Program-made: the position numbers and the translations under genes
Shown here: positions 5,423 to 44,540 of the stretch, in pieces
How the letters are laid out: each line of letters begins with the position of its first letter
How positions within the stretch are numbered: the first letter of the stretch is position 1
Notes under the pieces: generated by a model
Database searches by the model: none
What the model was told of the DNA's origin: nothing
The model's input: the letters and a program-made list of their open reading frames with translations, nothing else
NCBI GenBank assembly: GCA_041395785.1
Contig: JAWKZZ010000008.1
Location: 1,471 to 65,470, forward strand
DNA: 64,000 nucleotides
Reading direction: 5' to 3'
From: Pseudomonadales bacterium
GTDB lineage: Bacteria > Pseudomonadota > Gammaproteobacteria > Pseudomonadales > UBA7239

Positions 5423-7348
5423 TTAATGCTCGCCCGCTGGCCCGCCTATCGGTGTCACATTATTGGGGGGTGTTTCCGCTGCCGCTTTTTCTACTTCGTT
5501 GCTACCGCCAGCAGCTCCGCCACCCGCCGATGTATTGTGCCAATCGCGCGGCGCTCGCACGGCGCGACGCGCCATCAAGTCATCCACCTGTTCGCTGTCT
5601 AAGGTTTCATATTCCAGCAGCGCATTTTTCATCGCTTCTAAAATGTCGGTATTGGCATTCAACAAATCGGTGGCGCGCGCATAACTCAAATCAAGAATGC
5701 TTTTGATTTCGCTGTCGATCAATTCCGCCGTATGCGCAGAAATATTTTTCTCACGAAACCCTTCGCCATCGCGCGCGTCGTAATCCAACGCACCCAGCTT
5801 TTCTGACAAACCGTAATTCACCACCATCGCGCGGGCGATGCTGGTTGCCATTTGAATATCGCTGTACGCGCCAGTGGAGACACCGTCCGCGCCGTAAATC
5901 ATTTCTTCTGCGATTCGACCGCCGTACGCCGTAGCAATATCACTCATCAACTTGCGCTTGCTGGTACTGATGCGATCCGCCTCCGGCAAAAACCAAGTAA
6001 TACCCAGTGCGCGACCGCGCGGGATGATGGTGACTTTGTGAATTGGATCGTGTTCCGGCATCAAATAGCCGACGATGGCGTGACCGGCTTCGTGATACGC
6101 CGTCATAGTTTTTTCTTTTTCTGACATCACCATCGATTTGCGCTCGGCGCCCATCATGATTTTGTCGCGCGCTTTTTCAAACTCTTCTGTCGTTACCAAA
6201 CGGCGATTGCCGCGCGCCGCAAACAGCGCCGCTTCGTTCACCAAGTTGGCGAGATCCGCGCCGGAAAACCCTGGCGTGCCGCGCGCAATCACAGAGGCGT
6301 CTACCGCTTCATCCAGCGGCACTTTGCGCATATGCACTTTCAAAATTTGTTCGCGACCACGAATATCCGGCAGCGCAACATGCACTTGGCGATCAAAACG
6401 ACCGGGGCGCAGCAGCGCTTTATCCAAGACATCAGGGCGGTTGGTGGCGGCGATGACAATCACGCCTTCACTGCCTTCAAAACCATCCATTTCTACCAAC
6501 AATTGGTTCAGTGTTTGTTCGCGCTCGTCGTTGCCACCACCGTGACCACCGCCGCGATGGCGACCCACTGCATCAATCTCGTCGATAAACACGATACACG
6601 GCGCTTGTTTCTTCGCCTGTTCAAACATATCGCGCACCCGCGATGCGCCGACACCGACAAACATCTCCACAAAATCCGAACCGGAAATTGAAAAGAACGG
6701 CACTTTCGCTTCGCCAGCAATTGCTTTGGCTAACAGGGTTTTACCCGTTCCCGGTGGACCAGACATCAATACGCCGCGCGGAATTTTTCCGCCCAGTTTT
6801 TGAAAGCGCGATGGATCGCGCAAAAATTCCACTAACTCGCTGACATCTTCTTTTGCTTCATCCACACCGGCCACATCAGCAAAGGTGGTTTTGATTTGAT
6901 CTTCCGACAGCAGACGCGCTTTGCTTTTGCCAAAACTCATCGGTCCGCCTTTGCCACCCATGCCGCCCTGCATCTGGCGCATAAAAAACATAAACACGCC
7001 GACGATCAGCAACACCGGCAATATGGCAAAGAAAATTTGTTGCAACAAACCGGGTTGCTCCGGTTCACGCCCTTCAACTTTGACATTGTTGCTGAGCAGG
7101 TCATCCATCAAATGCGTATCCAGCACATTGGGGCGCACGGTTTGAAATTCCGTGCCGTCTTTCATTTCACCGTTAATTTTTTGGCCGTCGATCACCACCG
7201 ATGCCACACGCTGCTGCTGCACTTCTTGGATAAAGGCGGAGTAGTCGAGTGCGCTGGCTTGTTGCTGCGGCGTGAGATTGCGGAATGCCGACATCAGCAC
7301 AAACAAAATTGCGCCCCACACCAACAAATTTCTGATCGTATCGTTCAA
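5423..7348 (-). CDS. ftsH: ATP-dependent zinc metalloprotease FtsH
   Basis: 641 aa. Walker A GPPGTGKT, the AAA second region of homology, zinc site HEAGHA. Confidence 0.97.
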
Positions 7349-15390: not shown

Positions 15391-16434
15391 ATGTTTGACC
15401 CACACGCTCTTTTTGCAGTGCGCGCTGTAAACAAAAACTTACAAGCGGATATCCAACACAAAATTGATCAAAAAACCAAACCGCTGGGTGCCTTGGGCAC
15501 ACTGGAAATGATTGCCCTGCAAATTGCCCTCATCCAGCAAACACTCACGCCAACATTGAAAAAACCACACATGCTGCTATTTGCGGGTGATCACGGCATT
15601 ACCGCAGAAGGCGTGAGCCCTTTTTCGCAAGTAGTGACACAACAAATGGTGCACAACTTTGCCAAAGGCGGCGCGGCGATCAATGTGTTTTGCCGTCAAC
15701 ACGGTATTGCAATTGATGTGGTGGATGCCGGCGTGAATGGCGACTTGCGCGGCCTGCCTATCAAACAAGTGAAGGTAGCGGAAGGTACGCGCAACTTTTT
15801 GCACGAACCCGCGATGACAGCCGCGCAGTGTGAGCAGGCGATTGCGCGCGGTGCGATGTTGGTGCGCGCCACAGCAGAAGCTGGCAGCAACATCATCGGC
15901 TTTGGTGAAATGGGCATCGGCAACACTTCTTCTGCTACGGCGTTGTTTGCGGCCTTATCAGGTACAGCGATTGAAGATTGCGTGGGGCGCGGCACGGGCT
16001 TGGACGATCAAGGCTTGCAACACAAAACGGCTGTATTAAAAGCTGCACTCGCCAAACATGGCACGCTCGCTAACCCGTTTGACATGTTGTGCACTTTTGG
16101 CGGTTTTGAAATTGCGATGATGGTGGGCGCAATACTCGCCGCCTGTGAGAAAAAAATGGTGGTGATGATCGATGGCTTTATCGCCAGCAGCGCCGCTGCC
16201 ATTGCTTTTGCACTGGAACCACCCGCGCGCGATTACTGCATTTTTTCGCATTTATCGAACGAATCCGGTCATAAAAAAATACTCGATTATTTACAAGTTT
16301 CACCTCTGGTATCGCTTGGCTTGCGTTTGGGTGAAGGCAGCGGCGTAGCTGTCACTTATCCACTGATTCAATCGGCGGTTTTATTTTTGAATGACATGGC
16401 GTCGTTTGACGATGCCGGTGTATCCAACCAATGA
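15391..16434 (+). CDS. cobT: nicotinate-nucleotide--dimethylbenzimidazole phosphoribosyltransferase
   Basis: 347 aa. [14 protein letters not shown] and LGEGSG motifs. Confidence 0.92.
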
Positions 16435-24540: not shown

Positions 24541-27267
24541 ATGAACCACGCAGACTGCATTCTGGTTGACGGCTCCTCCCATTTCTTACCGGGTGCCTTC
24601 CACGCCCTGCCGCCGCTGACCACCAGCAAGGGTCAACCCACCGGCGCAGTGAAAGGCGGGGACCATTAAGCTGCGCAGCCTGCGCAAGCAGTATCCGCAC
24701 AGCGCCATCGCCGTGTTCGACCCGAAAGGCGACACTTCGCAACGCGTTGTACGCCGACTACAAAGCCAATCGCCCACCCATGCCCGACGATTTGCGCGCA
24801 GATTGTGCACCGCCGCATCGCCGATTCGCGTGATGGGAATTCCACTGGCTGATCGTCGATGGTGTGGTGCCGATGATGTGATCGACATCGGCTGGCCGTG
24901 CAGGCGCGCAACCAACAACAAGCCGTGCTGATTTCCACCGGCGACAAAGACATGGCGCAGTTGGTGACGAGCATGTCACGCTGGGTCAACACCATGACCA
25001 ACACCGTGCTGGATCGCGTTATGGGTGACGAAAGTATTTGGCACCGGTAAGCCGGAGCAGATTGTCGATTACCTCGCCTTGATGGGTGACAAAGTCGACA
25101 ACATTCCTGGCGTGGATAAGTGCGGCCCCAAGACTGCGGTGAAGTGGCTGCAAGAATACGGCTCGCTAGCAAGCGTGATGGACAACGCCGAAAAAATTGG
25201 CGGCAAAATTGGCGAGAACTTGCGCGCTGCTTTGTCCTTTCTGCCGCTGTCGCAACAACTCGCCACCATCAAAACCGATGTAGAGATGCCCATCAACTGG
25301 CGCGACTTACAAGCGGGCGAAATGGATCGCGCTGCACTGCTCGAATGGTTTACCGAACTGGAAATTCAAAGTCTGGATTGCAGAAGTGAATAACGGCGGC
25401 GATGTGATTGCTGCCGCTACTGCACCAACAACGCAAACCGAAACTGTCCCCGCACAATACGACACCATTACCGACATGGATCACTTGCAACAGTGGATCT
25501 CACGCTTGCAGTCTGCACCGTATTTTGCACTCGACACGGAAACTGGATTCGCTCGATTACATGCGTAAGCCAATATTGTCGGGTTGTCCTTGCAGTCAAA
25601 ACAGGCGAAGCCGCTTATGTACCGTGGCGCACGATTATCTCGGCGCGCCAACACAATTATCACGCGAAGCCGTACCTAAAGCACTCCAACCATTACTGAA
25701 GATACTTCCATTAAAAAAGTGGATGCAGAACGGCAAATACGATATGAATGTGTTTCGTATGCCGGCATTCAATTGCGCGGTGTGGCGTATGACACAATGC
25801 TGGAATCTTAGCGCGTTTTAGATCTGCCGCTACGCGCCACAACATGGATGATCTCGCGAAAAATATTTGGATTACGACACGGTTGCTTTTGAAGATATCG
25901 CCGGCAAAGGTGCGAATCAATTGTCGTTCAATCAAATTGACTTAGAAAAGCAGCGTTTTATGCCGCTGAAGATGCCGATATCACCTTGCGCCTGCATCGA
26001 AAACCCTGTGGCCACAACCGAGCGCCACACCGGCGTTGCAATCAAGCCTTTTGACCACATCGAAATCCCTTGCTTCCTGCATTGTCGCGCATCGAGCGCA
26101 ACGGCGTGCTGGTCGATGTCAAACGCTTACACAAGCACAGCGTAGAACTGGCGAGCGCATGCAAGCACTCACGCAAGAAGCGTTCACACTCGCCGGGCAA
26201 GAATTTAATTTGAGCTCGCCCAAACAACTCGGCGAAATTTTGTACGGAAAATTGAAACCGGTTTGCGCTGAAAAAAACACCGACCGGACAACTGTCTACC
26301 GCCGAACCGGTGTTGGTGCAGAACTCGCACTGGATTACCCGCTGCCGAAAGTGATTATGGAATATCGCGCGTGAGCAAACTGAAATCGACTTACACCGAT
26401 AAATTGCCGCAGATGGCAGGTGACCCTGCAACTGGTCGCGTTCACACTTCGTATCACCAAGCGATTGCGTCTACAGGGCGTTTGCTTCCTTCAGATCCCA
26501 ATCTCCAAACATTCATCTTTCGCACGGAAGAAGGTCGTCGCGTGCGACTGGCGTTTATCGCGCCCAAAAATTACAAAATGCTCGCCGCGGATTACTCACA
26601 AAATTGAATTGCGCATCATGGCGCACTTATCTGCGGATGACGGTTTGCGCAACGCGTTTGTACAGCGTTTTTCGACATTCACCGCGCCACCGCTGCCGAA
26701 GTGTTTGATACCGCATTAGAAAAGTGACGACCGAACAATGCCGCAGCGCGAAAGCCATCAACTTTGGTTTGATTTACGGTATGTCAGCCTTTGGTTTAGC
26801 GAAACAATTGCACATCGGTCGCCATCAAGCACAGGAATACATTGATTTATATTTTTCGCGCTACCCCGGCGTACATTGCGTTACGGAGGAAACACGCCAA
26901 CAAGCCGCCGAACAGGGTTTTGTTGAAAACGCTGTTTGGTCGCCGTTTGTATCTGCCCGATATCCGCTCCAAAACGCCGGCTTGCGCCAAGCGGCTGAGC
27001 GCACGGCGATCAACGCGCCGATGCAGGGCACTGCAGCCGATATCATCGCGCGCGATGATCCGCGTCTCGGAATGGCTGCAACACACGAAAACCGATGCGC
27101 GCATGATCATGCAAGTACACGACGAGCTGGTGTTCGAGGTCGCTGAACGCGATGTCGAGACCGTGCGCGAGACAGTCTGTAGCCTGATGTCTGCCGCAGC
27201 CGAACTGCATGTACCACTGGTCGTCGATGCCGAAGGCATCGGCGACAACTGGGACGAAGCCCACTGA
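24541..27267 (+). pseudogene. polA: DNA polymerase I, multiply frameshifted as written
   Basis: Pol I peptides occur in all three + frames. Examples are MNHADCILVDGSS..ALPPLTTSKGQPTGAV (24541-), [110 protein letters not shown]|[29 protein letters not shown] and QVHDELVFEV...NWDEAH. The total span of 2727 nt fits about 909 aa. There are at least a dozen frame switches. Confidence 0.9.
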
Positions 27268-27281
27268 ATACAGCCAACCTC

Positions 27282-28173
27282 ATGAAACATTCACTGTTAT
27301 TGCAAACTTTGACAAGAGCCCCGCATGGACACCACGAACCCGATACTGAAACTTCGGCCGCACCCGCCATCATCGCTTTTGCCGGCATCAGCGTGCTGAC
27401 CTCGTCGTGGTACACCGTCGATGAAGGCGAGCGCGCCGTGATCCTTATGCAATGGTGCCGCCATCGGCACTGCCGAACCCGGCCTGCACTTCAAGATACC
27501 GGTCATCGACCGAGCTGCATAATTTCAGCAGACATTGAATGAGTTTGACCAGATGCCCGCCTACTCGAAAGACCAAGCCGGCCGAGATCAAGCTCTCGCC
27601 TACCCCACGCTTCCAGCGTGCAGTCCATCTATTCCACCTACGGCTGGTGGAAGGTCTCGTCGACCGCATCCTGCGCCCGCGTGTGAACGATTCCACCAAG
27701 GAAGTGTTCACGAAGTTCACCGCCGTGTCGGTGATCCAGGATCGCGCCAAGTTCGGCACGGATGTTCACCAGGCTGTCATCAAGATCGTCAAAGCAATGA
27801 CATGGTGACGAATCCATCCAGATCGAGAACATCGACTTCTCCAGCGCCTACGAACAGAGCATCGAGCAGCGCATGCTGGCCGAAGTCGAAGTGCAGAAAG
27901 TTCGCCAGAACTGGAGAAGGAAAAGTCTCCGCCGACATCACCCGCACCCGCGCACAGGCCGAAGCTGATGCCCGGTTGCATTGGCACAGGCCACGGCCGA
28001 CGCCAAGGCGATTGAACTGCGCGCCAGGCTGAAGCGGCCGCCATCCGCGCCAAGGCTGATGCGCTGCGCGAGCCCGAACCTCGTAACCCTGATCCAGGCC
28101 GAGCGCTGTGGACGGCAAACTGCCGGCGACGATGGTGCCGAAGCTCGGCGGAAAGCTGTTTATCGTGGGGTGA
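27282..28173 (+). pseudogene. SPFH/band-7 (prohibitin-like) family protein, frameshifted as written
   Basis: Fragments lie in several frames: SWYTVDEGERAVIL, NGAAIGTAEPGLHFKIPVID, LEGLVDRILRPRVNDSTKEVFTKFTAVSVIQDRAKFG, IQIENIDFSSAYEQSIEQRMLAEVEVQKVRQN, and ends ..KLFIVG* (TGA 28171-28173). Confidence 0.7.
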
Positions 28174-28185
28174 AATAACTTCACC

Positions 28186-28325
28186 ACCCGGCGCTGCGCC
28201 ATCCTGAATCCGTTCCTTACCCGGCGCTGCGCCACCCTCTCCCGAATCAGAGAGGGTTGAGATGCTGCCTGCTGTTTTTTCCTTCTCCCGCTGGCGGAGA
28301 AGGTGGCCGAAGGCCGGATGAGGGT
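28186..28325. repeat. cluster of REP-like palindromic elements
   Basis: Direct repeat ACCCGGCGCTGCGCCA at 28186-28201 and 28219-28234. Hairpins ccctctc/gagaggg (28235-28256), ccttctcc/ggagaagg (28281-28303) and ggcc-gaa-ggcc (28305-28315). Confidence 0.7.
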
Positions 28326-28620
28326 TATCTCGCCAGCGCATTCCGTATCTTGCCAAACATTTCCTCATCGTGATGCCACAACCACATCAGCGAGTTGTAT
28401 TCTTTTCGCGCCAGCAACTCCGCGCTGTATTCAAATCCATAGTCCACTTTTCCGTCAGCCGCTCTGGAAAGACAGCACCAGCAAATCGCCGTCTGCTGGC
28501 TGCAGTGCCACATCGAAAGCATCAACCTCCCGCAAACGCGCCATAGAATGTGTTCGCGATTAATCGCATCTACAGCAGGATCCAGATAATACGGCGGCTG
28601 GATGGTGCCTGATCATTTCA
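28325..28620 (-). pseudogene. small ORF of unknown function, apparently frame-broken
   Basis: The minus strand reads ..TIQPPYYLDPAVDAINREHILWRV / LREVDAFDVALQPADGDLLVLSFQSG / DGKVDYGFEYSAELLARKEYNSLMWLWHHDEEMFGKIRNALAR* across 2-3 frames. I recognise no family. Confidence 0.2.
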
Positions 28621-28734
28621 TTCTTGTCTTGCGCCTGACGATAAAAATCCAGTAGTGGGCACAATCTTTCCACATCAGCCGTCTTGCAATGGACACAGTT
28701 TGAATTTGTCTGATACTACGCACATGGCACACCC

Positions 28735-31700
28735 TCACATCCCGCAGAATTTCCCATCCTCCACCCTTACCTTCCCACCACCACCAGCATTTCCAGTATC
28801 GATGGCAGGCGTTTTTTCCAAGCGCCCTTGCCGGTGAAGTGCGCGGCGATGGCATCAATATCCAATGCAATTTTGCTGGCGGCGAGTATATGTCTGCCAC
28901 GGCCTTCGCTTGCGCAATACCTTCTTCGGCCACGGTTGTTTTTCACAGCAGCAACGATTGGCTCACTCAAGTACTTCCGGCTCCACATCCAGCGGTTTGC
29001 ACGGCAATGGTTTCAGCAGCGGCTTGGGCCTTGTGTGTTTTGTGCGCTCTTGTTTTGATATTCCGGCCGCAACCAACGCACGATGCCGCGCTGTTCTTCT
29101 TCAACGCGCTCGGCATTTAATGCAACAAGGCGCCCAATAAAACCCCATCCAATTCGCGCTTGATGTCGATGCGCAATGACCCTCCGCTGCTGACGTGGCA
29201 CCTCCCCTATTGCATAGGGGGAGGATTTATCTCCTTGCGAAGGAGTGGCGCGCAGCGCCGAGGGGGGTCACGCCATCTTCACCACCTGCATCATCTCCTG
29301 CAAGCATCTATTCCAGCCGTAAGCGTCGAGCACGGCGAGGTCGAGTTCATCGTGCAATTGCTTGAGCACGGATACCAGCCCCTGTTCGTGGATGGTTTTT
29401 TCCTTCGCTGTCAGCGCGTCGCCGCTTTTGAGCTTTTCCAGCACGCTGTACATGCCGGTGAGCGTCAGCTCCGGGTGCTGCGCCTGCTGTTTCTTGCGAT
29501 GTGCATCCAGCTGCCTTCGCCAATGCGCGAATTCGGATTTTCTGTTCTTCCGTGGCAGCTGGAAACGGGAAAGGCTCGAAGCAACGGTATTGTTGTAAAC
29601 GGGATCATTACCAACACCCAGCCTTGCGCCAGCAGCCAATGCCCATACAACATGAGATGCACTAGACAAAACCCCTAGAACATAACCATCGTCATGCGCA
29701 ACTACGCGTATCTTTTGGTCTGGCAAATAGTCAGATTCGATAAAGACAAATGTTCTGTGTTTGGCGGTTTCTGTTGTTCCTATATATCTTGAGCAATTTT
29801 GTATAGCCTCGCGCAAATCTGGACGCGCTCTACCAAATAACCACCAATTATCCCTGAAAAGCTTATCTCTGCTGGAATCTCTTTCCGGCTTTACCCGGTC
29901 AAAAATTCTTTGAAACTCTTTGGGATAGAGTTCCATTGCCTGTTTATCAGAAAGACCGAAGAAATCCACAACCCGACAATCTCTTGGCTTTTGCGTCAAA
30001 TCCCTGCCATTCATGTACTTCCTGATCACTGGCGAATTTACACCATGCAGAGGATCTTCAGGCTCCACAACAAAGCCACCACCAACAAGGATGACACCCA
30101 TGAATGAAAGACCAGTATTGGAACGTAATGCCGGCGCTGACGCAACGTTGGCTCCAACCCGCAAGTCTGAATGAATGAGGCCAGAAGCCGCTCTCAGCTT
30201 CACATCAACTTCAGAATCTTCGACCTCTTTCTTCTTCAACCTTCTTGAGCAAACCGGATTTTTTACCTGCTTCACCAACCGTCATCGCAATACCGCACAG
30301 CAGCACCATCAGCGTTATCAACCCACGGGTGATCAGGAATTGCGAACACCAGCGACAGCGGTGCCTTGGCTGAAAGGTGTGTATCAACAATTTTTCTGTT
30401 GAACGCCATCGTCAAGCTGTTCGTAGTAACTGTGCCCGAACCGCAGCATTTTTTTCAAGCGCACACTTTCAGCCGCATGGTGCCACCAATACATAAATTC
30501 AAATCGGCTGTATCCGGCACATCGGGCCACGCGGCGCGCAACGCTTCCACATAACCATCACCCAGTGCCACACGCATGCGCTTGTTACCAATAAACGGTG
30601 GATTCCCCACCACAAAGTCCGCCTGCGGCCACTCGGCCTTGCGCGGATTAACGTACTGATCGATGGTGATGCGCGCAGTTTCATCCGGCACATCTTCCCC
30701 CGTCACCGGGATGCTTCTTGAACGCCTTGCCATCCCAGCGCGACACCGGCACGCCTTTCTCATCCTGCAACAACTCGATGCCGTCATACGCCAGCACGGC
30801 ATCGCGGTTTTCAATGTTGTGGAAATCGCGCAACACCGGCTGCGGCGGCTGCGCCGAACCGTTGGTCTTGAAATGCCATTGCAGATAGCCGATCCACAAC
30901 ACCATCTCGGCAATGCTCGCCGCGCGTGGATTTAACTTCAATACCAAGAAACTGGTGCGGATCAACCGTTAAGCCTTCCGTCTCCAAACTCATTGATACA
31001 TTCAAATCGTGCAACTGGTTCAACACTTCGCCTTCCAGCCGTTTCAAGTGTTCCAGCGTTACATACAGAAAGTTTCCCGAACCGCAAGCAGGATCCAGCA
31101 CGCGCACATTGCACAAACGATGTTGAAATTCACGCAACACATTTTCGGCTTCTTTGTTTCTTTTTCTTCACTCGCCAGCATCAGTGCCGCCGTCTGCGCG
31201 GTGTTCTGTCCTTCGCGCAGCGGTTCAATTACGGTTGGCAACACTAAACGCTCGACACATGCGCGCGGCGTGTAATGCGCACTGAGCGCGTGACGCTCAG
31301 TCGGGTCGAGTGCGTTCCAGTAGCGTGCCAAAAATCGCTGGTTCTACTTGGCTCCAATCTTTTCTGCCCGCTTCAATTCAACAGCGCAATTTGATCGCGG
31401 TGGATCCAACGGCAACACATCTGTTGTTTGAACAACTTGCCATTAAAGCGCAACACATCGGCGCGCAGAGAAACGGTAAAACCGCCGCCATCCATCGTCT
31501 TCCTGCCAAATCTGGTTACCAGCGGCATAAATTGCCAGTAGTGCGTTGGCGAGTGATTCCAATAATTCAGTGAACGAACGCTTCGGCAGCAGGCCAACAT
31601 CTTCAGCAAAAAGTGGGAACAAGCAGCGCGTGAGAAATCCAGCCACGCGTTCGGCACCAGTTCGCGCTTTCCAATGCTTTCGCGGATACCGGCCAGTTGC

Positions 31701-38889: not shown

Positions 38890-41179
38890 ATGCTCAATGC
38901 ACTGAGAAAACTGGTACAGGAAGTCAACGCAGCCACCCACTTGGAGGAGGCCTTGTCATTGATTGTGCGTCGCGTGCGCACCGAGATGGCAACACAGGTC
39001 TGCTCCATTTATCTGCTCGACACCGACAGCCAGCGCTACATCCTGATGGCTACCGAAGGTTTGAATCAGGATGCCAGGGCAAAGTCAGTTTGGCAGTTGG
39101 CGAAGGTTTGGTTGGCTTGGCGGCTAAACGCGAAGAGCCGATCAACTTGGATGATGCTGAATCACATCCACAATACCGCTATTTTCCAGAAACGGGCGAA
39201 GAGCGCTTCGCTCCTTTCTCGGCACGCCGATCATCCACCACGGCAAAGTGACCGGCGTATTGGTCGTACAGCAAATCGAAGAACGACACTTTGACGAATC
39301 GGAGGAATCTTTCCTCGTCACACTCTCGGCGCAGTTGGCGGCCATCATCGCGCACGCTGAGGCGACGCGCTCGCTCGACCCACCCAGCCGCCTGCACGGC
39401 TATAAATCCCCAGAAGCCAATTTCAAAGGGATATCCGCCGTACAAGGCGTGGCACTGGGTGAGGTGGTGGTGGTCTATCCGCCCGCCGACCTCAATGGTA
39501 TCCCCATCGAGAAAACGGACGACATTGATGCTGAACTGATACTGCTCAATGCCGCACTGCAACGCGTGCGCCAGGATATGCAGCAATTGTCGAGCAGCTG
39601 CAAAACCGCTTGCGCGAGGAAGAGCGCGCTGTTTGCCGTCTATCTCGGCATGCTGACTGACAGTGCCTTAGGCGGCGAAATCAGTGCACTTATTCGCACT
39701 GACGCCCTACAAGCACGATCTGCACTGGCCAGCGTCATCCGTGAACACATACGCACTTTTGAAGACATGGAAGACGCTTACTTACGCGAACGCGCCACCG
39801 ATGTGCGCGACCTAGGTTTGCGCGTGTTGGCAGCCATGAACCTACAAAACCAGGACAACAAACGCACCGTATATCCGGCAAGAACCATTTTAGTAGCCGA
39901 AGAACTCAGCGCCTCCATGCTCGGTGAAGTGCCCGAAGGGCAGCTTGTCGGCTTGATCTCAGTGCGCGGCTCCAGCGCCTCACACGCTGCTATCCTCGCG
40001 CGCGCCATGGGCATCCCCACCGTGGTCGGTGTCACCAATCTGCCTTTCCAGCAACTGAATGGCCGCCACATTGTGCTCGACGGCTATCGTGGCAAGGTGT
40101 ACACCAACCCCTCCAAATTATTGCGCCGTCACTTTGAAAGTATTTGGCGCGAAGAACAGCAACTCTCACGCGACTACCACGCGCTGACACCACTGCCTTG
40201 CGAAACCAAAGATGGACAACGACTTCCTCTGTGGGCCAACACCGGCATGATGACCGATGTGGTGCGCTCACTGGACCGCGGCGCAGAAGGCGTCGGTCTC
40301 TACCGCACCGAAGTCGCTTTTTTGTTGCGCGACCGCTTCCCCAGTGAAGAAGAACAGCGCAGCTTGTATCGCGAACAGTTAAGCGCCTTTGCCCCCAACC
40401 CCGTCACCATGCGCACACTGGACATCGGCGGCGACAAATCCCTACCCTACTTTCCCATCCGCGAAGACAACCCGTTTCTCGGCTGGCGCGGGATTCGCGT
40501 ATCACTCGATCACCCTGAGATTTTCTTGGTGCAAGTGCGCGCGATGTTGAAAGCCAGTGAAGGCGTCAACAATCTGCGCATCATGTTGCCAATGATCACC
40601 AGCACCGCAGAATTGGATCAAGCTTTGCAATTAATTTATCGCGCGCGGCAAGAACTGCTGGAAGAAGGGCACGACATTCATCTGCCGCAAATCGGCGCGA
40701 TGATCGAAGTACCGGCTGCACTTTACCAAGTGCGCGAATTGGCACGCCGCACAGATTTCCTCTCAGTAGGCACTAACGATTTAACGCAATATTTGCTAGC
40801 GGTTGATCGCAATAACGCGCGCGTAGCAGGTCTTTACAGCCATTTGCACCCCGCCGTTTTGCAGGCGCTAGCTCATATTGCCAACGACGCGCACGCCGAA
40901 GGAAAAACGGTCAGCGTCTGCGGTGAAATGGCGGGCGATCCCTGCGCCGCCGTGTTGTTGATGGCGATGGGTTACGATGCGCTGTCCATGAATGCCAACA
41001 ATTTGCCGAAAATAAAATCTGTCATTCGCAATTTGCACCTGACAGATGCAAAAAAATTATTGTCAGAAGTATTGGCGATGAACGATGTGCGCTCCATCAG
41101 CAAACACGCCAACAGCACACTAGCGCGCTGGGGGGTTAGCAAACGCCTCTTGCACGCCGAGACAGAAGAAGACGCCTAA
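38890..41179 (+). CDS. ptsP: phosphoenolpyruvate-protein phosphotransferase PtsP (EI-Ntr), two single-nt frameshifts in the GAF domain as written
   Basis: The GAF N-terminus MLNALRKLVQEVN..YLLDTDSQRYILMATEGLNQDA switches frame at ~39075-39079 to GKVSLAVGEGLVGLAAKREEPINLDDAESHPQYRYFPETGEERFA. It switches again at ~39209-39216 to LGTPIIHHGKVTGVLVVQQ... The EI domain is then intact (GSSASHAAILARAMGIPTVVG, FLSVGTNDLTQY) through 41179. Each switch is a -1 shift. Confidence 0.9.
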
Positions 41180-41218
41180 TTTTTTCTGCGCTAGCATTGA
41201 CTCACCATTGCGTAGCGG

Positions 41219-41255
41219 AAAAAATAAACCCCGCAGCGCGTCCAGCGTTGCGGGG
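41219..41255 (-). terminator. rho-independent terminator (minus strand)
   Basis: Stem ccccgcagcgc / gcgttgcgggg (41229-41255). The minus strand continues TTTATTTTTT (41228-41219). Confidence 0.8.
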
Positions 41256-41462
41256 TTCGGGGTCCATCTGTTAGATGTCTTCCTTGTGCTCTCAATAAGT
41301 ACCTGCCGCTAGCAGGTCGCATCCTTGAGCGCCCTTCTAGATCAGTCCAATGCTCCATGCTCCTTGACTGATCTTTCCCTTTCGCCGTTTTACCGGCTGT
41401 CCGTTCGATTAGCACCTCCGTGTGTGCTGTCGTCCGTGTGTTGCCATTCTTGCTAAAACCCC
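41219..41462 (-). ncRNA. Csr/Rsm-family sRNA (CsrB/RsmY/RsmZ-like)
   Basis: About 10 GGA motifs, several in predicted loops. Stem AGCAC/GUGCU has loop ACACGGAG. The 8-bp stem GAUCAGUC/GACUGAUC encloses AAGGAGCAUGGAGCAUUG. CAAGGAUG and CAAGGAAG are also present. GacA-type box upstream and terminator downstream. The 5' end is approximate. Confidence 0.7.
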
Positions 41463-41495
41463 CTTGTGCGTATAGTCGCCAATGTCTCCAATTCA

Positions 41496-41513
41496 TGTAC
41501 GCGATTTCTTACA
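41496..41513 (-). promoter_or_regulatory. GacA/UvrY-type upstream activating box
   Basis: The minus strand reads TGTAAGAAATCGCGTACA against the consensus TGTAAG-N6-CTTACA (one mismatch). A possible -10 CTATAC/TATACG lies at 41469-41475. Confidence 0.6.
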
Positions 41514-41599
41514 AAACGCGACTGCTGGTATCGAAAATCCCACGCAGGCTTGCGTGTACCATAGCGCCCTGTTCACGGATGCCACGCAACGATTCGCTC

Positions 41600-42970
41600 A
41601 TGTCAAAAAATAAAACAGCCTTTGTATGCAATGACTGCGGTGCCGATTACACCAAGTGGGCGGGGCAATGCACTGCCTGCGGCGGTTGGAACACACTAGC
41701 TGAGGTACGCCTCGGCAGCAGTAAAAAAAGCAGCGCCCCTGCGCGGCGCGACGGATTTGCTGGCGGCACTGGCGGCGGCATCCAGACGCTGGATCAAATC
41801 GCACTGCAAGAACAGGCGCGCATTCATACCGGCAGCGCCGAATTGGATCGCGTACTCGGTGGCGGTTTGGTCGCGGGTTCCGCTGTATTGATCGGCGGCA
41901 ATCCGGGTGCTGGCAAAAGTACGCTGTTGTTACAGCTACTGTGCCAATTGGCCGCCACACAAACCTGTTTGTATGTCACCGGCGAAGAATCCCTGCAGCA
42001 AGTGGCGATGCGCGCGCGGCGTTTAGGCTTGCCTGTCGACAAGCTGCACACCTTATCGGAAACCAGCATTGAATCGCTGTTAGCAGCAGCGGAATCGCTC
42101 TCACCCGCCGTGATGGTGGTGGACTCCATTCAGGTAATGCATTGGCCTGAGTTGGCTTCCGCGCCTGGTTCCGTGAGTCAGGTGCGCGAATGCGCAGCGC
42201 TATTGACACGCTTTGCCAAACAAACCGGCACAGCCTTGATTCTGGTGGGACATGTAACGAAAGACGGCTCGCTCGCCGGCCCTAAAGTGTTGGAGCACAT
42301 GATCGATGCCTCCATCATGCTGGAAAGCACCGATGACTCTCGCTACCGCACACTGCGCAGTCACAAAAATCGCTTCGGCGCGGTCAATGAGCTCGGTGTG
42401 TTTGCCATGACAGAACAGGGCTTGCGCGAAGTAAATAACCCATCGGCAATTTTTTTGTCACGCAGCGATGAAGTTAGCAGCGGTTCGGTGGTGATGGTGG
42501 TATGGGAAGGCACACGCCCGCTGCTGGTAGAAATTCAGGCATTGGTGGATAGCAATGCGTATGGCAATCCACGGCGCGTGGCAGTTGGCTTGGATCAAAA
42601 TCGTTTGGCGATGTTGCTTGCTGTATTGCACCGCCACGGCGAGTTGATGCTGGGCGATCAAGATGTATTTGTGAATGTCGTGGGCGGTGTAAAAGTGAGC
42701 GAAACCAGTGCAGATCTCGCATCACTGTTGGCGATGGTTTCCAGCTTTCGCAATCGCCCACTGCCGCGAGACCTGGTAGTGTTTGGCGAAGTGGGTTTAT
42801 CGGGAGAGATCCGCCCAGTACCCAGCGGTCAAGAGCGCATTAAAGAAGCAGCCAAACACGGTTTTCGCAAAGCGATTGTTCCCGCATCCAACGCGCCGCG
42901 TGAAAAAATTGACGGCATGGAGGTTATTGGCGTTAAAAAACTAGCTGAGGCACTGGCTGCAGTGGAGTAA
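41600..42970 (+). CDS. radA: DNA repair protein RadA
   Basis: MSKNKTAFVCNDCGADYTKWAGQCTACGGWNT (zinc finger), Walker A GGNPGAGKST, KNRFG motif, Lon-like C-terminal domain. The track ORF start at 41420 is an upstream artefact. Confidence 0.93.
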   Translation: MSKNKTAFVCNDCGADYTKWAGQCTACGGWNTLAEVRLGSSKKSSAPARRDGFAGGTGGGIQTLDQIALQEQARIHTGSAELDRVLGGGLVAGSAVLIGGNPGAGKSTLLLQLLCQLAATQTCLYVTGEESLQQVAMRARRLGLPVDKLHTLSETSIESLLAAAESLSPAVMVVDSIQVMHWPELASAPGSVSQVRECAALLTRFAKQTGTALILVGHVTKDGSLAGPKVLEHMIDASIMLESTDDSRYRTLRSHKNRFGAVNELGVFAMTEQGLREVNNPSAIFLSRSDEVSSGSVVMVVWEGTRPLLVEIQALVDSNAYGNPRRVAVGLDQNRLAMLLAVLHRHGELMLGDQDVFVNVVGGVKVSETSADLASLLAMVSSFRNRPLPRDLVVFGEVGLSGEIRPVPSGQERIKEAAKHGFRKAIVPASNAPREKIDGMEVIGVKKLAEALAAVE

Positions 42971-42977
42971 CAAGAAA

Positions 42978-44540
42978 TCAGAACGACGATGACTTCGTGC
43001 GATACAAAGACACGCAGTTGCGGCCGTGCTCTTTACTTTCATACAAAGCCTGATCCGCCATTTCAATTAAATCACCGTAATGCAGCGCCTCTTCTGGCAC
43101 TACGCACGCTACCCCGATACTGACCGTCACCACGCCAAAATTAGAATTAGCCGCGTGTTCAATACCCAGCTCCTGCACAGACAGCCTACATTTTTCTGCC
43201 ACTTCACGAGCCGCCTCTAAAGTGGTTTCCGGCAAAATAATGGCAAACTCTTCACCACCGTAACGCGCCACCATATCACCTGGGCGATGTACACCTTTCT
43301 GCAGCGCCTGCGCCACATCGTGCAAGCAGCGATCGCCGCGCACATGGCCGTAAATATCATTGTATTTTTTGAAATTATCCACATCACAAAGAATGATTGT
43401 GAGTGGACGAAAAAAACGCTGTGCGCGCGGCCATTCTTTATGCATCACCTCAAAGAAACGGCGGCGATTGGGAATGCGCGTTAAACCGTCAATCAGCGCT
43501 GCGTCTTGCAACTCGTTATCCATGCGGCGCAGCACACGCAAATACGCTTCAATCATCAAAGAAAACAACAAAATACCAACGCCCAACATATAAGGGAACA
43601 ATGTACGCTGGCTACTGAAATAACTCTTAGATGGGGTGCCAACCAAAAACCACTGTAAATCTGCAATGGGAGATAACTGTCTTGAATAAACAAAACGCTC
43701 GTCATCAATAAGATCCGAGCCCACATGCTCAGATACACGAATTGACCCACCGCTCACCTGGCCAGAATTGTCATCCAAAGCAATATCGTTGGCCTCACTC
43801 CAATTCCACGCATTTTCCAAAACATCATTGAAAATAATGTCAATATCGTAAAGGCCGACAACAAAACCCTTAAGCGCTTTCTGACGATCTTCTTCACTCT
43901 CTGCGCTGTACGCATACAGAGGCAGCGAAATAAAATATAAATATTTTTGTTTACCATCTTCGGTAATTTTTAACGGCGCTGAAGCAATGGCCTGATCGTT
44001 CGATGTCGCCGTCTCCAACGCTGTACGCGTCACAATAGTAGATGCCAAGTCATAACCAACTGGCAGTTCTCTGCTGACTTCTGGCTCTGACATCATGATG
44101 GGGAAATACTCATCACTCACTGGAGAAAATGAGTAGCGATCCTTGCCTTCTTGCGACTCCGCCACATCCGTGATACCTGGAATAGCAAACTTATTTTTCA
44201 GCTCTGCCTCGAACGCTGGGCGATCATCATTCAACACGCGCGGCACCCACTTCATGCCATACACACCATCGTTGTATTCACGCGCATTGCGGCTAAATGT
44301 AGAAAATCCTCTTTCTTCGACCTGAGGAAATGCCTCATGAAAACTGCGAAAAGAATTCAAGACCGCAATATTTCTACCCAACTCTAGTTCCAAAGAGCTG
44401 GCAAACGCATCAACCTGCGAAGTGAATTCTTGAAAAATTTGCTGGCGTTCGTGTTTATACGACACCACAAATGATGTCACGGCCAGCGAAACGCCTAGCA
44501 ACAAATTTAAAACCCTTATGTATGTAAAGTGACTCAACAT
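42978..44540 (-). CDS. CHASE-domain sensor diguanylate cyclase (GGEEF, RxxD I-site)
   Basis: 520 aa. N-terminal TM, periplasmic CHASE-like region (WVPRV...RPAFE...YFPIMMSEP...GYDLAS), second TM, and GGDEF domain with RPGD-x5-GGEEF. Confidence 0.8.
   Translation of the reverse strand: MLSHFTYIRVLNLLLGVSLAVTSFVVSYKHERQQIFQEFTSQVDAFASSLELELGRNIAVLNSFRSFHEAFPQVEERGFSTFSRNAREYNDGVYGMKWVPRVLNDDRPAFEAELKNKFAIPGITDVAESQEGKDRYSFSPVSDEYFPIMMSEPEVSRELPVGYDLASTIVTRTALETATSNDQAIASAPLKITEDGKQKYLYFISLPLYAYSAESEEDRQKALKGFVVGLYDIDIIFNDVLENAWNWSEANDIALDDNSGQVSGGSIRVSEHVGSDLIDDERFVYSRQLSPIADLQWFLVGTPSKSYFSSQRTLFPYMLGVGILLFSLMIEAYLRVLRRMDNELQDAALIDGLTRIPNRRRFFEVMHKEWPRAQRFFRPLTIILCDVDNFKKYNDIYGHVRGDRCLHDVAQALQKGVHRPGDMVARYGGEEFAIILPETTLEAAREVAEKCRLSVQELGIEHAANSNFGVVTVSIGVACVVPEEALHYGDLIEMADQALYESKEHGRNCVSLYRTKSSSF

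What the first reader, a model, noticed from the sequence alone, without database searches (positions are those of the whole stretch)
41219..41513. Unannotated Csr/Rsm-family sRNA with a GacA/UvrY box in the ptsP-radA spacer
Seen: the minus strand carries TGTAAGAAATCGCGTACA (41513-41496; one mismatch to TGTAAG-N6-CTTACA). A possible -10 (CTATAC/TATACG) follows, then ~245 nt containing ~10 GGA motifs: ACACGGACG, ACACGGAGG, AACGGACA, AAGGGAAA, CAAGGAGCAUGGAGCAUUGGACUG, CAAGGAUG, CAAGGAAG and GAUGGACC. Several sit in loops of obvious hairpins (AGCAC/GUGCU; the 8-bp GAUCAGUC/GACUGAUC; ACCUGC/GCAGGU). The RNA ends with an 11-bp terminator plus UUUAUUUUUU. The 101-aa track ORF here has no SD and an implausible composition. 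Established: CsrB/RsmX/Y/Z sRNAs titrate CsrA/RsmA through repeated (A/C)NGGA loops and are activated by GacA/UvrY through this palindromic box. Inference: this is the (or a) Gac-controlled RsmA/CsrA antagonist of this organism.
Basis: partly seen in the sequence, partly recalled or inferred. Interest (0 to 1): 0.65.

Follow-up and report, generated by a model that had tools for sequence, protein, structure and literature searches.

The report
Likely CsrA-sponge small RNA, new family
Between ptsP and radA lies a highly conserved non-coding RNA gene of about 220-245 nt with all the sequence hallmarks of the small RNAs that soak up the global regulator CsrA/RsmA; it is an expected kind of regulator, but it matches no catalogued RNA family.

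Summary
The minus strand 41513-41219 carries a one-mismatch GacA/UvrY-type box. Downstream is a structured stretch (MFE z = -5.9) with 11 GGA, 9 ANGGA and no UCC. It ends in an intrinsic terminator followed by UUUAUUUUUU.

Five related loci (one MAG, four metagenome or Logan contigs) share the ptsP-RNA-radA arrangement. There the RNA is 95-99.6% identical, against 78-92% for radA and 79-94% for ptsP. The rest of the spacer does not align in the more distant relatives. The 101-aa ORF loses its start codon and its frame in those relatives, so the element is non-coding.

It meets four of the five published criteria for CsrA-regulating sRNAs. Its numbers resemble those of E. coli CsrB run as a positive control. 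The fifth criterion, a conserved upstream box, is inconclusive because the box has two mismatches in all three relatives that cover it.

No Rfam model (CsrB, CsrC, RsmX/Y/Z or any other) matches, even at E <= 10. It is therefore not a member of those families but an uncatalogued family of the same functional kind. It was found only in one clade of uncultured Cellvibrionales-like bacteria.

The presence of csrA and gacA in this genome, transcription of the RNA, and CsrA binding could not be tested. Verdict: probable CsrA/RsmA antagonist (about 0.7); Gac control plausible (about 0.5). Interest is modest.

The parts
41496..41513 (-). GacA/UvrY-type palindromic box TGTAAGAAATCGCGTACA (one mismatch to TGTAAG-N6-CTTACA)
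   Evidence: 2 matches with <=1 mismatch in 64 kb vs 0.03 expected. The position is kept in L001, L081 and L082, but with 2 mismatches each. The left half TTTGTAAGAAAT is the conserved part. E. coli csrB also has a one-mismatch box.
41472..41495 (-).
   Evidence: Nearly invariant in window, L081, L001 and L082. No sigma-70 -35/-10 pair was found by the scan. CTATAC resembles the RpoS-type -10 CTATACT quoted in PMC2375449. Its function is inferred.
41446..41451 (-). Alternative -10 candidate AAGAAT (AACAAT in L001 and L082). It would give a start near 41441-41439 and place the box centre near -65.
   Evidence: Read from the sequence. Near-invariance of the RNA begins at about 41441, while 41471-41442 carries most of the substitutions. 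Inference only; the start site is undetermined.
41219..41465 (-). sRNA body (5' end uncertain: about 41465 or about 41440) with 11 GGA motifs at 41435-33, 41419-17, 41402-00, 41378-76, 41363-61, 41356-54, 41348-46, 41324-22, 41283-81, 41265-63 and 41243-41
   Evidence: Identity to L081 is 99.6%, to L001 96.7% and to L082 94.8%, against 92/83/78% for radA. All 11 GGA are invariant in every relative that covers them.
41411..41428 (-). Hairpin AGCAC-ACACGGAG-GUGCU, with GGA in the loop
   Evidence: MFE and consensus structure. P(unpaired) of its GGA is 0.99.
41339..41374 (-). 9-bp hairpin AGAUCAGUC / GACUGAUCU with an 18-nt loop AAGGAGCAUGGAGCAUUG; three GGA in all, the third straddling loop and 3' stem arm
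   Evidence: P(unpaired) is 0.64, 0.99 and 0.33 for the three GGA.
41288..41332 (-). Composite helix: outer GC.CUCAA/UUGAG.GC enclosing the hairpin ACCUGCU-AGC-GGCAGGU, with CAAGGAUG in the internal loop
   Evidence: The A-to-G change in L082 keeps the pair as G-U. The U-run 3' of the hairpin varies in length (2-4 U) between relatives.
41265..41277 (-). Hairpin CAUCU-AAC-AGAUG; its terminal G (41265) is the first G of GGA 41265-41263, and ACAAGGAAG lies single-stranded just upstream
41219..41258 (-). Intrinsic terminator: stem 41258-41226 (core CCCCGCA/UGCGGGG, inner CGC/GCG, loop UGGAC) and U-tract UUUAUUUUUU to 41219
   Evidence: The C-to-U change in L082 keeps the pair as U-G. Sequence conservation between relatives collapses a few dozen nt downstream of the U-tract.

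Best explanation
A stand-alone gene for a small non-coding RNA of about 220-245 nt is transcribed from the minus strand of the ptsP-radA spacer and ended by its own intrinsic terminator.

The RNA displays about nine accessible GGA motifs, most in the (C)ANGGA(N)G context that CsrA/RsmA proteins recognise. The motifs sit in hairpin loops and in single-stranded linkers. The most likely mechanism is molecular mimicry: the RNA binds several CsrA/RsmA dimers at once and titrates them away from GGA-containing mRNA leaders, relieving CsrA-dependent translational control. This is how CsrB, CsrC, RsmX, RsmY and RsmZ work.

Its transcription is probably activated by the GacA/UvrY-type response regulator through the half-conserved palindrome at 41513-41496.

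Shown: the motifs, the predicted fold, the terminator, the conservation and the non-coding nature.
Inferred: transcription, CsrA binding and Gac control.
For: Intergenic position between ptsP and radA, both on the other strand.

Motif density:
- 9 ANGGA in 252 nt, against a window-wide mean of 0.7 (sd 1.0) and a next-best of 6.
- P = 0.0002 against dinucleotide shuffles of the element.
- 4 CANGGANG within 160 nt on one strand, where about 0.06 are expected.
- 0 UCC, so nothing in the RNA can pair with the GGA motifs.
- 9 of 11 GGA predicted unpaired, against 44% of all positions.

Fold: z = -5.9. Strong terminator.

Positive control with the same script, E. coli CsrB: 22 GGA in 369 nt, 7 ANGGA, 2 UCC, 19 of 22 GGA unpaired, and a box with one mismatch.

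Conservation:
- The RNA is 99.6, 96.7 and 94.8% identical in L081, L001 and L082. radA is 92, 83 and 78% and ptsP 94, 82 and 79%.
- The spacer outside the box-to-terminator block is unalignable in L001 and L082.
- All GGA are invariant. 8 of about 11 variable columns of the body are unpaired and 2 are wobble-compatible.

Non-coding: the ORF start codon is lost and the frame is broken in L001 and L082.

Box: 2 matches with <=1 mismatch in the window against 0.03 expected, one of them directly upstream of the RNA.

Lineage: GacS/GacA and CsrA are reported in Cellvibrionaceae genomes (Teredinibacter, Saccharophagus, Cellvibrio; PMC2699552).

Criteria: the element meets criteria i-iv of Kulkarni et al. 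2006 for CsrA-regulating sRNAs (PMC1488887).
Against: - No Rfam Csr/Rsm model matches, even at E <= 10.
- The raw GGA count is not above what the element's own dinucleotide composition gives (P = 0.14).
- Only 4 motifs fit the stricter AGGA/ARGGA definition used for CsrB.
- The box carries 2 mismatches in all three relatives that cover it, and it varies more than the RNA does.
- No sigma-70 promoter was detected and the start site is unknown.
- The stems are invariant, so there is no covariation support.
- There is no csrA, gacA or uvrY in the 64 kb window or in the fetched flanks, so their presence in this organism is only inferred from the lineage.
- Conservation across the whole RNA is higher than a sponge that needs only GGA hairpins would strictly require.
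Confidence: 0.7

Rival explanations
1. A structured, conserved small RNA with a function unrelated to CsrA, such as a base-pairing sRNA or a ligand for another RNA-binding protein. The GGA motifs would be a by-product of its purine-rich composition, and the palindrome would serve another regulator or none.
For: - No Csr/Rsm family hit in Rfam.
- The GGA count is not significant against dinucleotide shuffles.
- Near-total conservation of stems and linkers alike (95-99.6%) suggests constraints beyond GGA display.
- The box is degenerate in relatives.
- csrA was not seen.
Against: - ANGGA and CANGGANG clustering is far beyond chance.
- There is no UCC at all, and 9 of 11 GGA are exposed.
- The metrics equal those of the CsrB control.
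- Csr/Rsm sRNAs are known not to be recoverable by homology across genera (PMC1488887).
Confidence: 0.15
2. A CsrA/RsmA sponge that is not under GacA control. Its promoter would be driven by another factor, for example RpoS through the CTATAC -10, or a regulator that binds the invariant TTGGAGACATTGGCGACTAT block. The TGTAAG palindrome would be incidental or vestigial.
For: - Two of the 12 specified box positions vary among four close relatives, while the adjacent block 41495-41472 is nearly invariant.
- CTATAC resembles the RpoS-type -10 quoted in PMC2375449.
- RsmW of P. aeruginosa is an RsmA-binding RNA that is not activated by GacA (PMC4950607).
Against: - The chance of a <=1-mismatch box anywhere in 64 kb is about 0.03, yet one lies directly upstream of the RNA.
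- The left half-site and the spacer (TTTGTAAGAAAT) are conserved in three of four sequences.
- Functional boxes tolerate mismatches: E. coli csrB has TGTGAG and P. fluorescens rsmZ has CTTACT (PMC4353343).
Confidence: 0.3
3. A cis-acting 5' leader or attenuator of the small 67-aa gene that follows on the same strand in relatives.
For: All five relatives have a conserved 67-aa ORF 40-70 nt downstream of the terminator, on the same strand.
Against: - The window has lost that ORF but keeps the RNA at 99.6% identity to L081.
- The terminator is strong, with a 10-nt U-tract, and no alternative anti-terminator is evident.
- No riboswitch or leader family matches.
Confidence: 0.05
4. A real protein-coding gene: the 101-aa ORF 41496-41191.
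For: The ORF is open in the window and in L081. A gene caller predicted it once in a public assembly (P0001).
Against: - In L001 the ATG is ACG and an in-frame TAG follows.
- In L082 the ATG is GCA, with an in-frame stop and two frame-shifting indels.
- No family match.
- One homologue among 5.8 billion clustered proteins, 97% identical.
- The ORF reads through the terminator hairpin.
Confidence: 0.01

Closest known systems
RsmY / RsmZ / RsmX of Pseudomonas (GacA-dependent RsmA/RsmE-sequestering sRNAs)
   Same: - A stand-alone intergenic gene with a palindromic TGTAAG-N6-CTTACA-type upstream box and no obvious -35.
- Multiple GGA motifs in (A/U)CANGGANG-like contexts, exposed in hairpin loops and linkers.
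- A GGA near the 5' end if transcription starts near 41440.
- A rho-independent terminator.
- The taxonomically closest group with characterised Csr-type sRNAs (Pseudomonadales in the broad sense).
   Different: - About twice as long (about 220-245 nt, against about 110-135 nt; PMC4353343).
- 11 GGA, against 7-8.
- No match to any Rfam covariance model and no detectable sequence homology.
- A different genomic neighbourhood (ptsP/radA).
- A more degenerate box whose distance to the start site is unknown.
CsrB / CsrC of Enterobacterales and CsrB1-4 of Vibrionaceae (UvrY/VarA-dependent CsrA sponges)
   Same: Same predicted mechanism and the same five descriptive criteria (PMC1488887). GGA density and exposure are comparable to E. 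coli CsrB measured with the same script: 4.5 vs 6.0 GGA per 100 nt, 9 of 11 vs 19 of 22 unpaired, and a one-mismatch box in both.
   Different: - Shorter (about 245 nt against 369-420 nt).
- The motifs are mostly ACGGA, AUGGA and AAGGA rather than the AGGA/ARGGA typical of CsrB.
- No CM match.
- The box lies close to the promoter (about -40 or about -65) rather than at -182 as in E. coli csrB.
RsmW / RsmV of P. aeruginosa (RsmA-binding sRNAs not activated by GacA)
   Same: Multi-GGA RsmA-binding RNAs outside the classical families. They show that the sponge architecture arises repeatedly and can be decoupled from GacA (PMC4950607).
   Different: RsmW is processed from the 3' UTR of an mRNA and has no nearby GacA box. 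The element here has its own conserved promoter region, a nearby box, and no upstream gene on its strand.

Membership tests
CsrA/RsmA-regulating sRNAs, functional class (criteria of Kulkarni et al. 2006, PMC1488887) | (i) Located in an intergenic region | tested here: met
   Lies in the 420-nt spacer between ptsP (ends 41179, +) and radA (starts 41600, +), on the opposite strand. The only overlapping ORF is not conserved.
CsrA/RsmA-regulating sRNAs, functional class (criteria of Kulkarni et al. 2006, PMC1488887) | (ii) High concentration of the CsrA-binding motif (AGGA/ARGGA; more broadly ANGGA or CANGGANG) | tested here: met
   9 ANGGA and 11 GGA in 252 nt, the top of all windows in 64 kb. 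P = 0.0002 for ANGGA against dinucleotide shuffles. 4 CANGGANG within 160 nt. Caveats: only 4 sites are strict AGGA/ARGGA, and the raw GGA count is not above the element's own dinucleotide expectation.
CsrA/RsmA-regulating sRNAs, functional class (criteria of Kulkarni et al. 2006, PMC1488887) | (iii) Rho-independent terminator | tested here: met
   G+C-rich stem 41258-41226 followed by UUUAUUUUUU. Invariant in five relatives apart from one wobble-compatible change.
CsrA/RsmA-regulating sRNAs, functional class (criteria of Kulkarni et al. 2006, PMC1488887) | (iv) Predicted structure with repeated GGA in loops and free regions | tested here: met
   9 of 11 GGA have ensemble P(unpaired) >= 0.5, against 44% of all positions. 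There is no UCC in the RNA. The E. coli CsrB control gives 19 of 22.
CsrA/RsmA-regulating sRNAs, functional class (criteria of Kulkarni et al. 2006, PMC1488887) | (v) Conserved upstream site of the csrB, csrC or rsmY type (GacA/UvrY box) | tested here: inconclusive
   One mismatch in the window. Same position but two mismatches in each of L081, L001 and L082. The distance to the start site is unknown.
CsrA/RsmA-regulating sRNAs, functional class | The organism encodes CsrA/RsmA, and the RNA binds it | not testable with these tools
   No csrA in the 64 kb window or in 80 flanking loci. Presence in the lineage is inferred from PMC2699552. Binding needs an experiment.
CsrA/RsmA-regulating sRNAs, functional class | Transcription depends on GacS/GacA (BarA/UvrY) | not testable with these tools
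   Needs expression data from a gacA or gacS mutant. There is no gacA or uvrY in the window.
Rfam families CsrB, CsrC, RsmY, PrrB_RsmZ and rsmX (homology families) | Match to the family covariance model at or near its gathering score | tested here: not met
   Nothing at the gathering threshold in the window or in 16 related loci. On 41100-41700 at E <= 10 there are only four chance-level hits, to unrelated families, and none to a Csr/Rsm family.
Protein-coding gene (101-aa ORF) | Reading frame and start codon conserved in relatives | tested here: not met
   Start codon lost, in-frame stops and frame-shifting indels in L001 and L082. No family match.
Riboswitch or cis-regulatory leader | Match to a known aptamer family, and a regulated gene directly downstream on the same strand | tested here: not met
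   No Rfam match. In the window the downstream same-strand sequence runs antisense to the end of ptsP. The small ORF present in relatives is absent here.

The most novel reading that the evidence does not exclude
The RNA may be more than a generic CsrA sponge. It is almost frozen in sequence (95-99.6% identical, where radA and ptsP have drifted to 78-94%), and this holds for stems and linkers that a sponge would not need to conserve. It may therefore carry a second, sequence-specific function, such as base-pairing with mRNAs, binding a second protein, or a dedicated turnover signal. Alternatively it may titrate an RNA-binding protein other than CsrA. Either way it would be the founder of a new RNA family limited to an uncultured Cellvibrionales-like clade from wastewater-type habitats.
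Probability: 0.12. Interest if true: 0.6.

Novelty: new member of a known kind. Interest (0 to 1): 0.35.

Why it matters
The Gac/Csr cascade is the main post-transcriptional switch of Gammaproteobacteria, covering carbon flow, biofilm, motility and secondary metabolism. It can only be studied in a lineage once its sponge RNAs are known, and these RNAs are not recoverable by homology.

In the held paper library no Csr-type sRNA turned up for Cellvibrionales, a group of interest for polysaccharide degradation. This element gives that group a concrete, testable candidate with mapped motifs, and a seed alignment of six sequences for a new covariance model.

It also shows that a gene caller turned the RNA into a spurious 101-107-aa hypothetical protein.

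If confirmed it would extend an established mechanism to a new lineage. It would not change how the pathway is understood.

Tried and rejected
1. Rfam at the gathering threshold on the whole window, at E <= 10 on the spacer and on 16 related loci: no Csr/Rsm family. Family membership rejected.

2. A search for the element next to radA in 80 genomes, by nhmmer, by box scan, by ANGGA density and by eye. Only L001 has it. Only L001 also has ptsP next to radA, so the junction itself is specific to this clade.

3. Covariation: the stems are invariant, so the analysis is uninformative. I did not build a covariance model, because six near-identical sequences would not reach further than nhmmer did.

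4. The spurious ORF used as a probe:
- In the protein database it gave one hit, which led to L081.
- In metagenome contigs it gave L082-L084. This was the only route that produced more homologues.

5. A sigma-54 promoter in TTGGCGACTATACGCA: rejected, because the GG-to-GC spacing is wrong and the -12 region is not conserved (read).

6. A CrcZ-type Hfq/Crc sponge: rejected, because there are no A-rich AANAANAA motifs (read from the sequence).

7. The neighbouring GGDEF protein as CsrD: rejected. The match covers the GGDEF domain only, at 32 bits against a cut-off of 663.

8. A second GGA-rich stretch at 28453-28202 (-): it lies among broken ORFs of a decayed MmeI-like gene, with purine runs and no hairpin-plus-terminator layout.

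9. The second box at 15426-15443: inside cobT, with no GGA cluster nearby.

10. An exact look-up of the window's RadA to identify the source genome: not on record.
Full report
**Setting**

The finding lies in the 420-nt spacer between two plus-strand genes. ptsP ends at 41179 and scores 662 bits against the PtsP equivalog. radA runs from 41600 to 42970 and scores 697 bits against TIGR00416. RadA places the organism among uncultured Cellvibrionales-like Gammaproteobacteria. The best genome hit is a MAG labelled "Pseudomonadales bacterium STL-PRO114" (96% amino-acid identity). Next come MAGs labelled uncultured Pseudomonadales (87%) and Cellvibrionales (83%), then Marinimicrobium, Cellvibrionaceae and related MAGs and genera at 72-75%.

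**Checking the observation**

- *Box.* TGTAAGAAATCGCGTACA sits at 41513-41496. With at most one mismatch to TGTAAG-N6-CTTACA the window holds two sites, against 0.03 expected. The other site is 36 nt inside cobT and looks incidental.
- *Motif counts.* The minus strand 41470-41219 contains 11 GGA (one more than listed, in the terminator loop), 9 ANGGA and no UCC.
- *Significance against the window.* Across all 252-nt windows of the 64 kb, ANGGA averages 0.7 (sd 1.0) on that strand. This element is the maximum with 9, and the runner-up has 6.
- *Significance against its own composition.* Against dinucleotide-preserving shuffles of the element, ANGGA is enriched (9 vs 2.5, P = 0.0002). The raw GGA count is not (11 vs 8.4, P = 0.14). 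The signal therefore lies in the motif context, not merely in G+A richness.
- *CANGGANG.* This is the core of the RsmE/CsrA recognition consensus as I recall it. It occurs 29 times in the window, exactly the chance expectation. Four of those sites fall on this strand within 160 nt.
- *Fold.* The stretch folds at -90.3 kcal/mol, z = -5.9, and none of 200 shuffles does as well.
- *Exposure.* Nine of the 11 GGA are predicted unpaired, against 44% of all positions.
The simple scans detect neither the promoter nor the terminator. The terminator is missed because its inner 3-bp helix makes the loop too long for that scan.

**Is it a real gene, and of what kind?**

Two probes found relatives. The RadA search of genomes gave L001. 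Using the spurious 101-aa ORF as a probe gave L081, from a Logan assembly, and L082-L084, from metagenome contigs, one of them labelled activated sludge. All five keep the order ptsP - element - radA.

| Segment | L081 | L001 | L082 |
|---|---|---|---|
| RNA | 99.6% | 96.7% | 94.8% |
| radA | 92.1% | 83.2% | 78.4% |
| 3' part of ptsP | 94.0% | 82.2% | 79.3% |

These are nucleotide identities to the window.

- In L001 and L082 the spacer upstream of about 41540, and the stretch a few dozen nt beyond the U-tract, cannot be aligned with the window.
- A block running from just upstream of the box to the terminator, more conserved than the essential genes around it, is the signature of a gene that acts at the nucleotide level.
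- It is not a protein gene. In L001 the ATG is ACG and is followed by an in-frame TAG. In L082 the ATG is GCA, and there is an in-frame stop plus a 1-nt deletion and a 2-nt insertion.
- Within the RNA all GGA triplets are invariant. Of about 11 variable columns, 8 are unpaired in the consensus fold, 2 are wobble-compatible (A-U to G-U, C-G to U-G) and 1 removes a terminal pair.
- No stem pair changes on both sides, so covariation says nothing for or against the fold.
- The element is single-copy in the window.

**The 5' end**

It cannot be fixed by computation.

It would start the RNA near 41465 and centre the box near -40.
- However, 41471-41442 carries most of the substitutions between relatives, and near-invariance begins at about 41441 (ACACACGGACG...).
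- A second candidate -10, AAGAAT at 41451-41446 (AACAAT in L001 and L082), would start the RNA near 41440. That would centre the box near -65, closer to the -75 reported for P. aeruginosa rsmY (PMC4950607).
- Either start leaves all 11 GGA inside the RNA.

**Mechanism**

The element meets four of the five features that Kulkarni et al. call defining for CsrA-regulating sRNAs (PMC1488887): an intergenic position, dense binding motifs, an intrinsic terminator, and GGA in loops and free regions.

As a positive control I ran the same script on E. coli CsrB (L085). It has 22 GGA in 369 nt, 7 ANGGA, 2 UCC, 19 of 22 GGA unpaired, and a one-mismatch box (TGTGAG...CTTACA) centred at -182. The element here is quantitatively of the same kind: 4.5 GGA per 100 nt, 3.6 ANGGA per 100 nt, 0 UCC, 9 of 11 unpaired.

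I therefore commit to the following mechanism. The RNA binds several CsrA/RsmA dimers through its exposed GGA motifs and titrates them away from mRNA leaders. With about 9 accessible sites and two sites per dimer, it could hold about 4-5 dimers. That figure is an inference from established knowledge of CsrB and RsmZ.

**The Gac part is weaker**

The fifth criterion, a conserved upstream site, is inconclusive.

| Sequence | Box | Mismatches |
|---|---|---|
| window | TGTAAG AAATCG CGTACA | 1 |
| L081 | TGTAGG ...... CGTACA | 2 |
| L001 | TGTAAG ...... CGCACA | 2 |
| L082 | TGTAAG ...... CGTACG | 2 |

- The position and the left half (TTTGTAAGAAAT) are kept, but the box varies more than the RNA does.
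- Functional boxes with mismatches are known: CTTACT at P. fluorescens rsmZ (PMC4353343) and TGTGAG at E. coli csrB. The box therefore remains a reasonable candidate, at roughly even odds.

**Membership versus mechanism**

No Rfam 15 family reaches its gathering score in the window except one tRNA. A permissive scan of 41100-41700 at E <= 10 returns only four chance-level hits to unrelated families, mostly on the terminator and one internal hairpin, and none to CsrB, CsrC, RsmY, RsmZ or RsmX.

The RNA is thus not a member of those homology families. This lowers the claim "it is an RsmY/CsrB" but not the claim "it works like one". Csr-type sRNAs are known to escape homology searches between genera (PMC1488887).

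**What could not be shown**

- No csrA, rsmA, uvrY or gacA is present in the 64 kb window or in the fetched flanks, and the rest of the genome is out of reach.
- Their presence is inferred from the lineage. Teredinibacter turnerae encodes GacS and GacA, and csrA/rsmA is annotated in Teredinibacter, Saccharophagus and Cellvibrio (PMC2699552).
- Transcription, CsrA binding and Gac dependence all need experiments.

**Distribution and novelty**

- Among the 80 radA loci, only L001 has the element, and only L001 has ptsP next to radA.
- The gene, like the junction that hosts it, is confined to one clade, roughly genus-level.
- A full-text search found no paper linking Cellvibrio, Saccharophagus or Teredinibacter with RsmY, RsmZ or CsrB.
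- I rate it a new member of a known kind: an uncatalogued RNA family with the established sponge architecture, expected in a gammaproteobacterium that has the Gac/Csr cascade.
- The one feature a specialist might find odd is how completely the sequence is frozen compared with the flanking genes. This leaves room for a second function (novel case, about 0.12).

**Rivals**

- A conserved sRNA unrelated to CsrA: 0.15.
- A CsrA sponge that is not Gac-controlled: 0.3. This is a sub-case of the main explanation.
- A leader of the 67-aa ORF that follows in relatives: 0.05. The window has lost that ORF yet keeps the RNA.
- A protein-coding gene: 0.01.

Noticed in passing
window 38890-39250 (+): The 5' end of ptsP is split over three reading frames: aa 1-65 in frame 1, aa 64-110 in frame 3, and aa 99-763 in frame 2. 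The close relative L081 has an intact 764-aa ptsP. This is either a pseudogene or indel errors in the assembly.
   Followed up: partly
window 27000-30300, both strands: This stretch has only short, broken ORFs. One fragment (29268-30278, -) carries an MmeI target-recognition domain, so this looks like a decayed restriction-modification gene. Its minus strand is also GGA-rich (28453-28202: 12 GGA, 6 ANGGA) but has no sRNA-like layout.
   Followed up: partly
window 15426-15443: The second one-mismatch GacA-type palindrome, TGTAAACAAAAACTTACA, lies 36 nt inside the cobT-like gene (DBI_PRT domain, 15391-16434, +). No GGA cluster is nearby, so it is probably incidental, although only 0.03 such sites are expected per window.
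   Followed up: partly
L081 5321-5524 (+); also L001 3349-3549 (-), L082 687-887, L083 281-481, L084 194-394: A conserved 67-aa ORF (MSIKS..., hydrophobic N-terminus, 81% identity between relatives, no Pfam match) follows the sRNA terminator on the same strand in all five relatives. It is deleted in the window.
   Followed up: partly
L039 (Marinobacter daqiaonensis) 5955-6204 (+), about 600 nt downstream of radA: An intergenic stretch with 13 GGA and 7 ANGGA. It has hairpins that present AGGGA and CAGGAG in their loops, for example GACGAGCGCC-AGGGA-CGGCGCTCGTC. It may be an Rsm-type sRNA of Marinobacter. There is no Rfam hit at the gathering threshold.
   Followed up: no
window 41514-41540 (-): About 25 nt upstream of the box (TTTCGATAC...AGTCGCGTTT) are partly conserved in L001 and L082, while the rest of the spacer is not. 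This could be a further regulatory site of the sRNA promoter.
   Followed up: no
L081 2263-3564 (+): The closest relative has an extra GT87-family glycosyltransferase gene between radA and the CHASE-GGDEF gene. In the window the GGDEF gene (42978-44540, -) directly follows radA.
   Followed up: no
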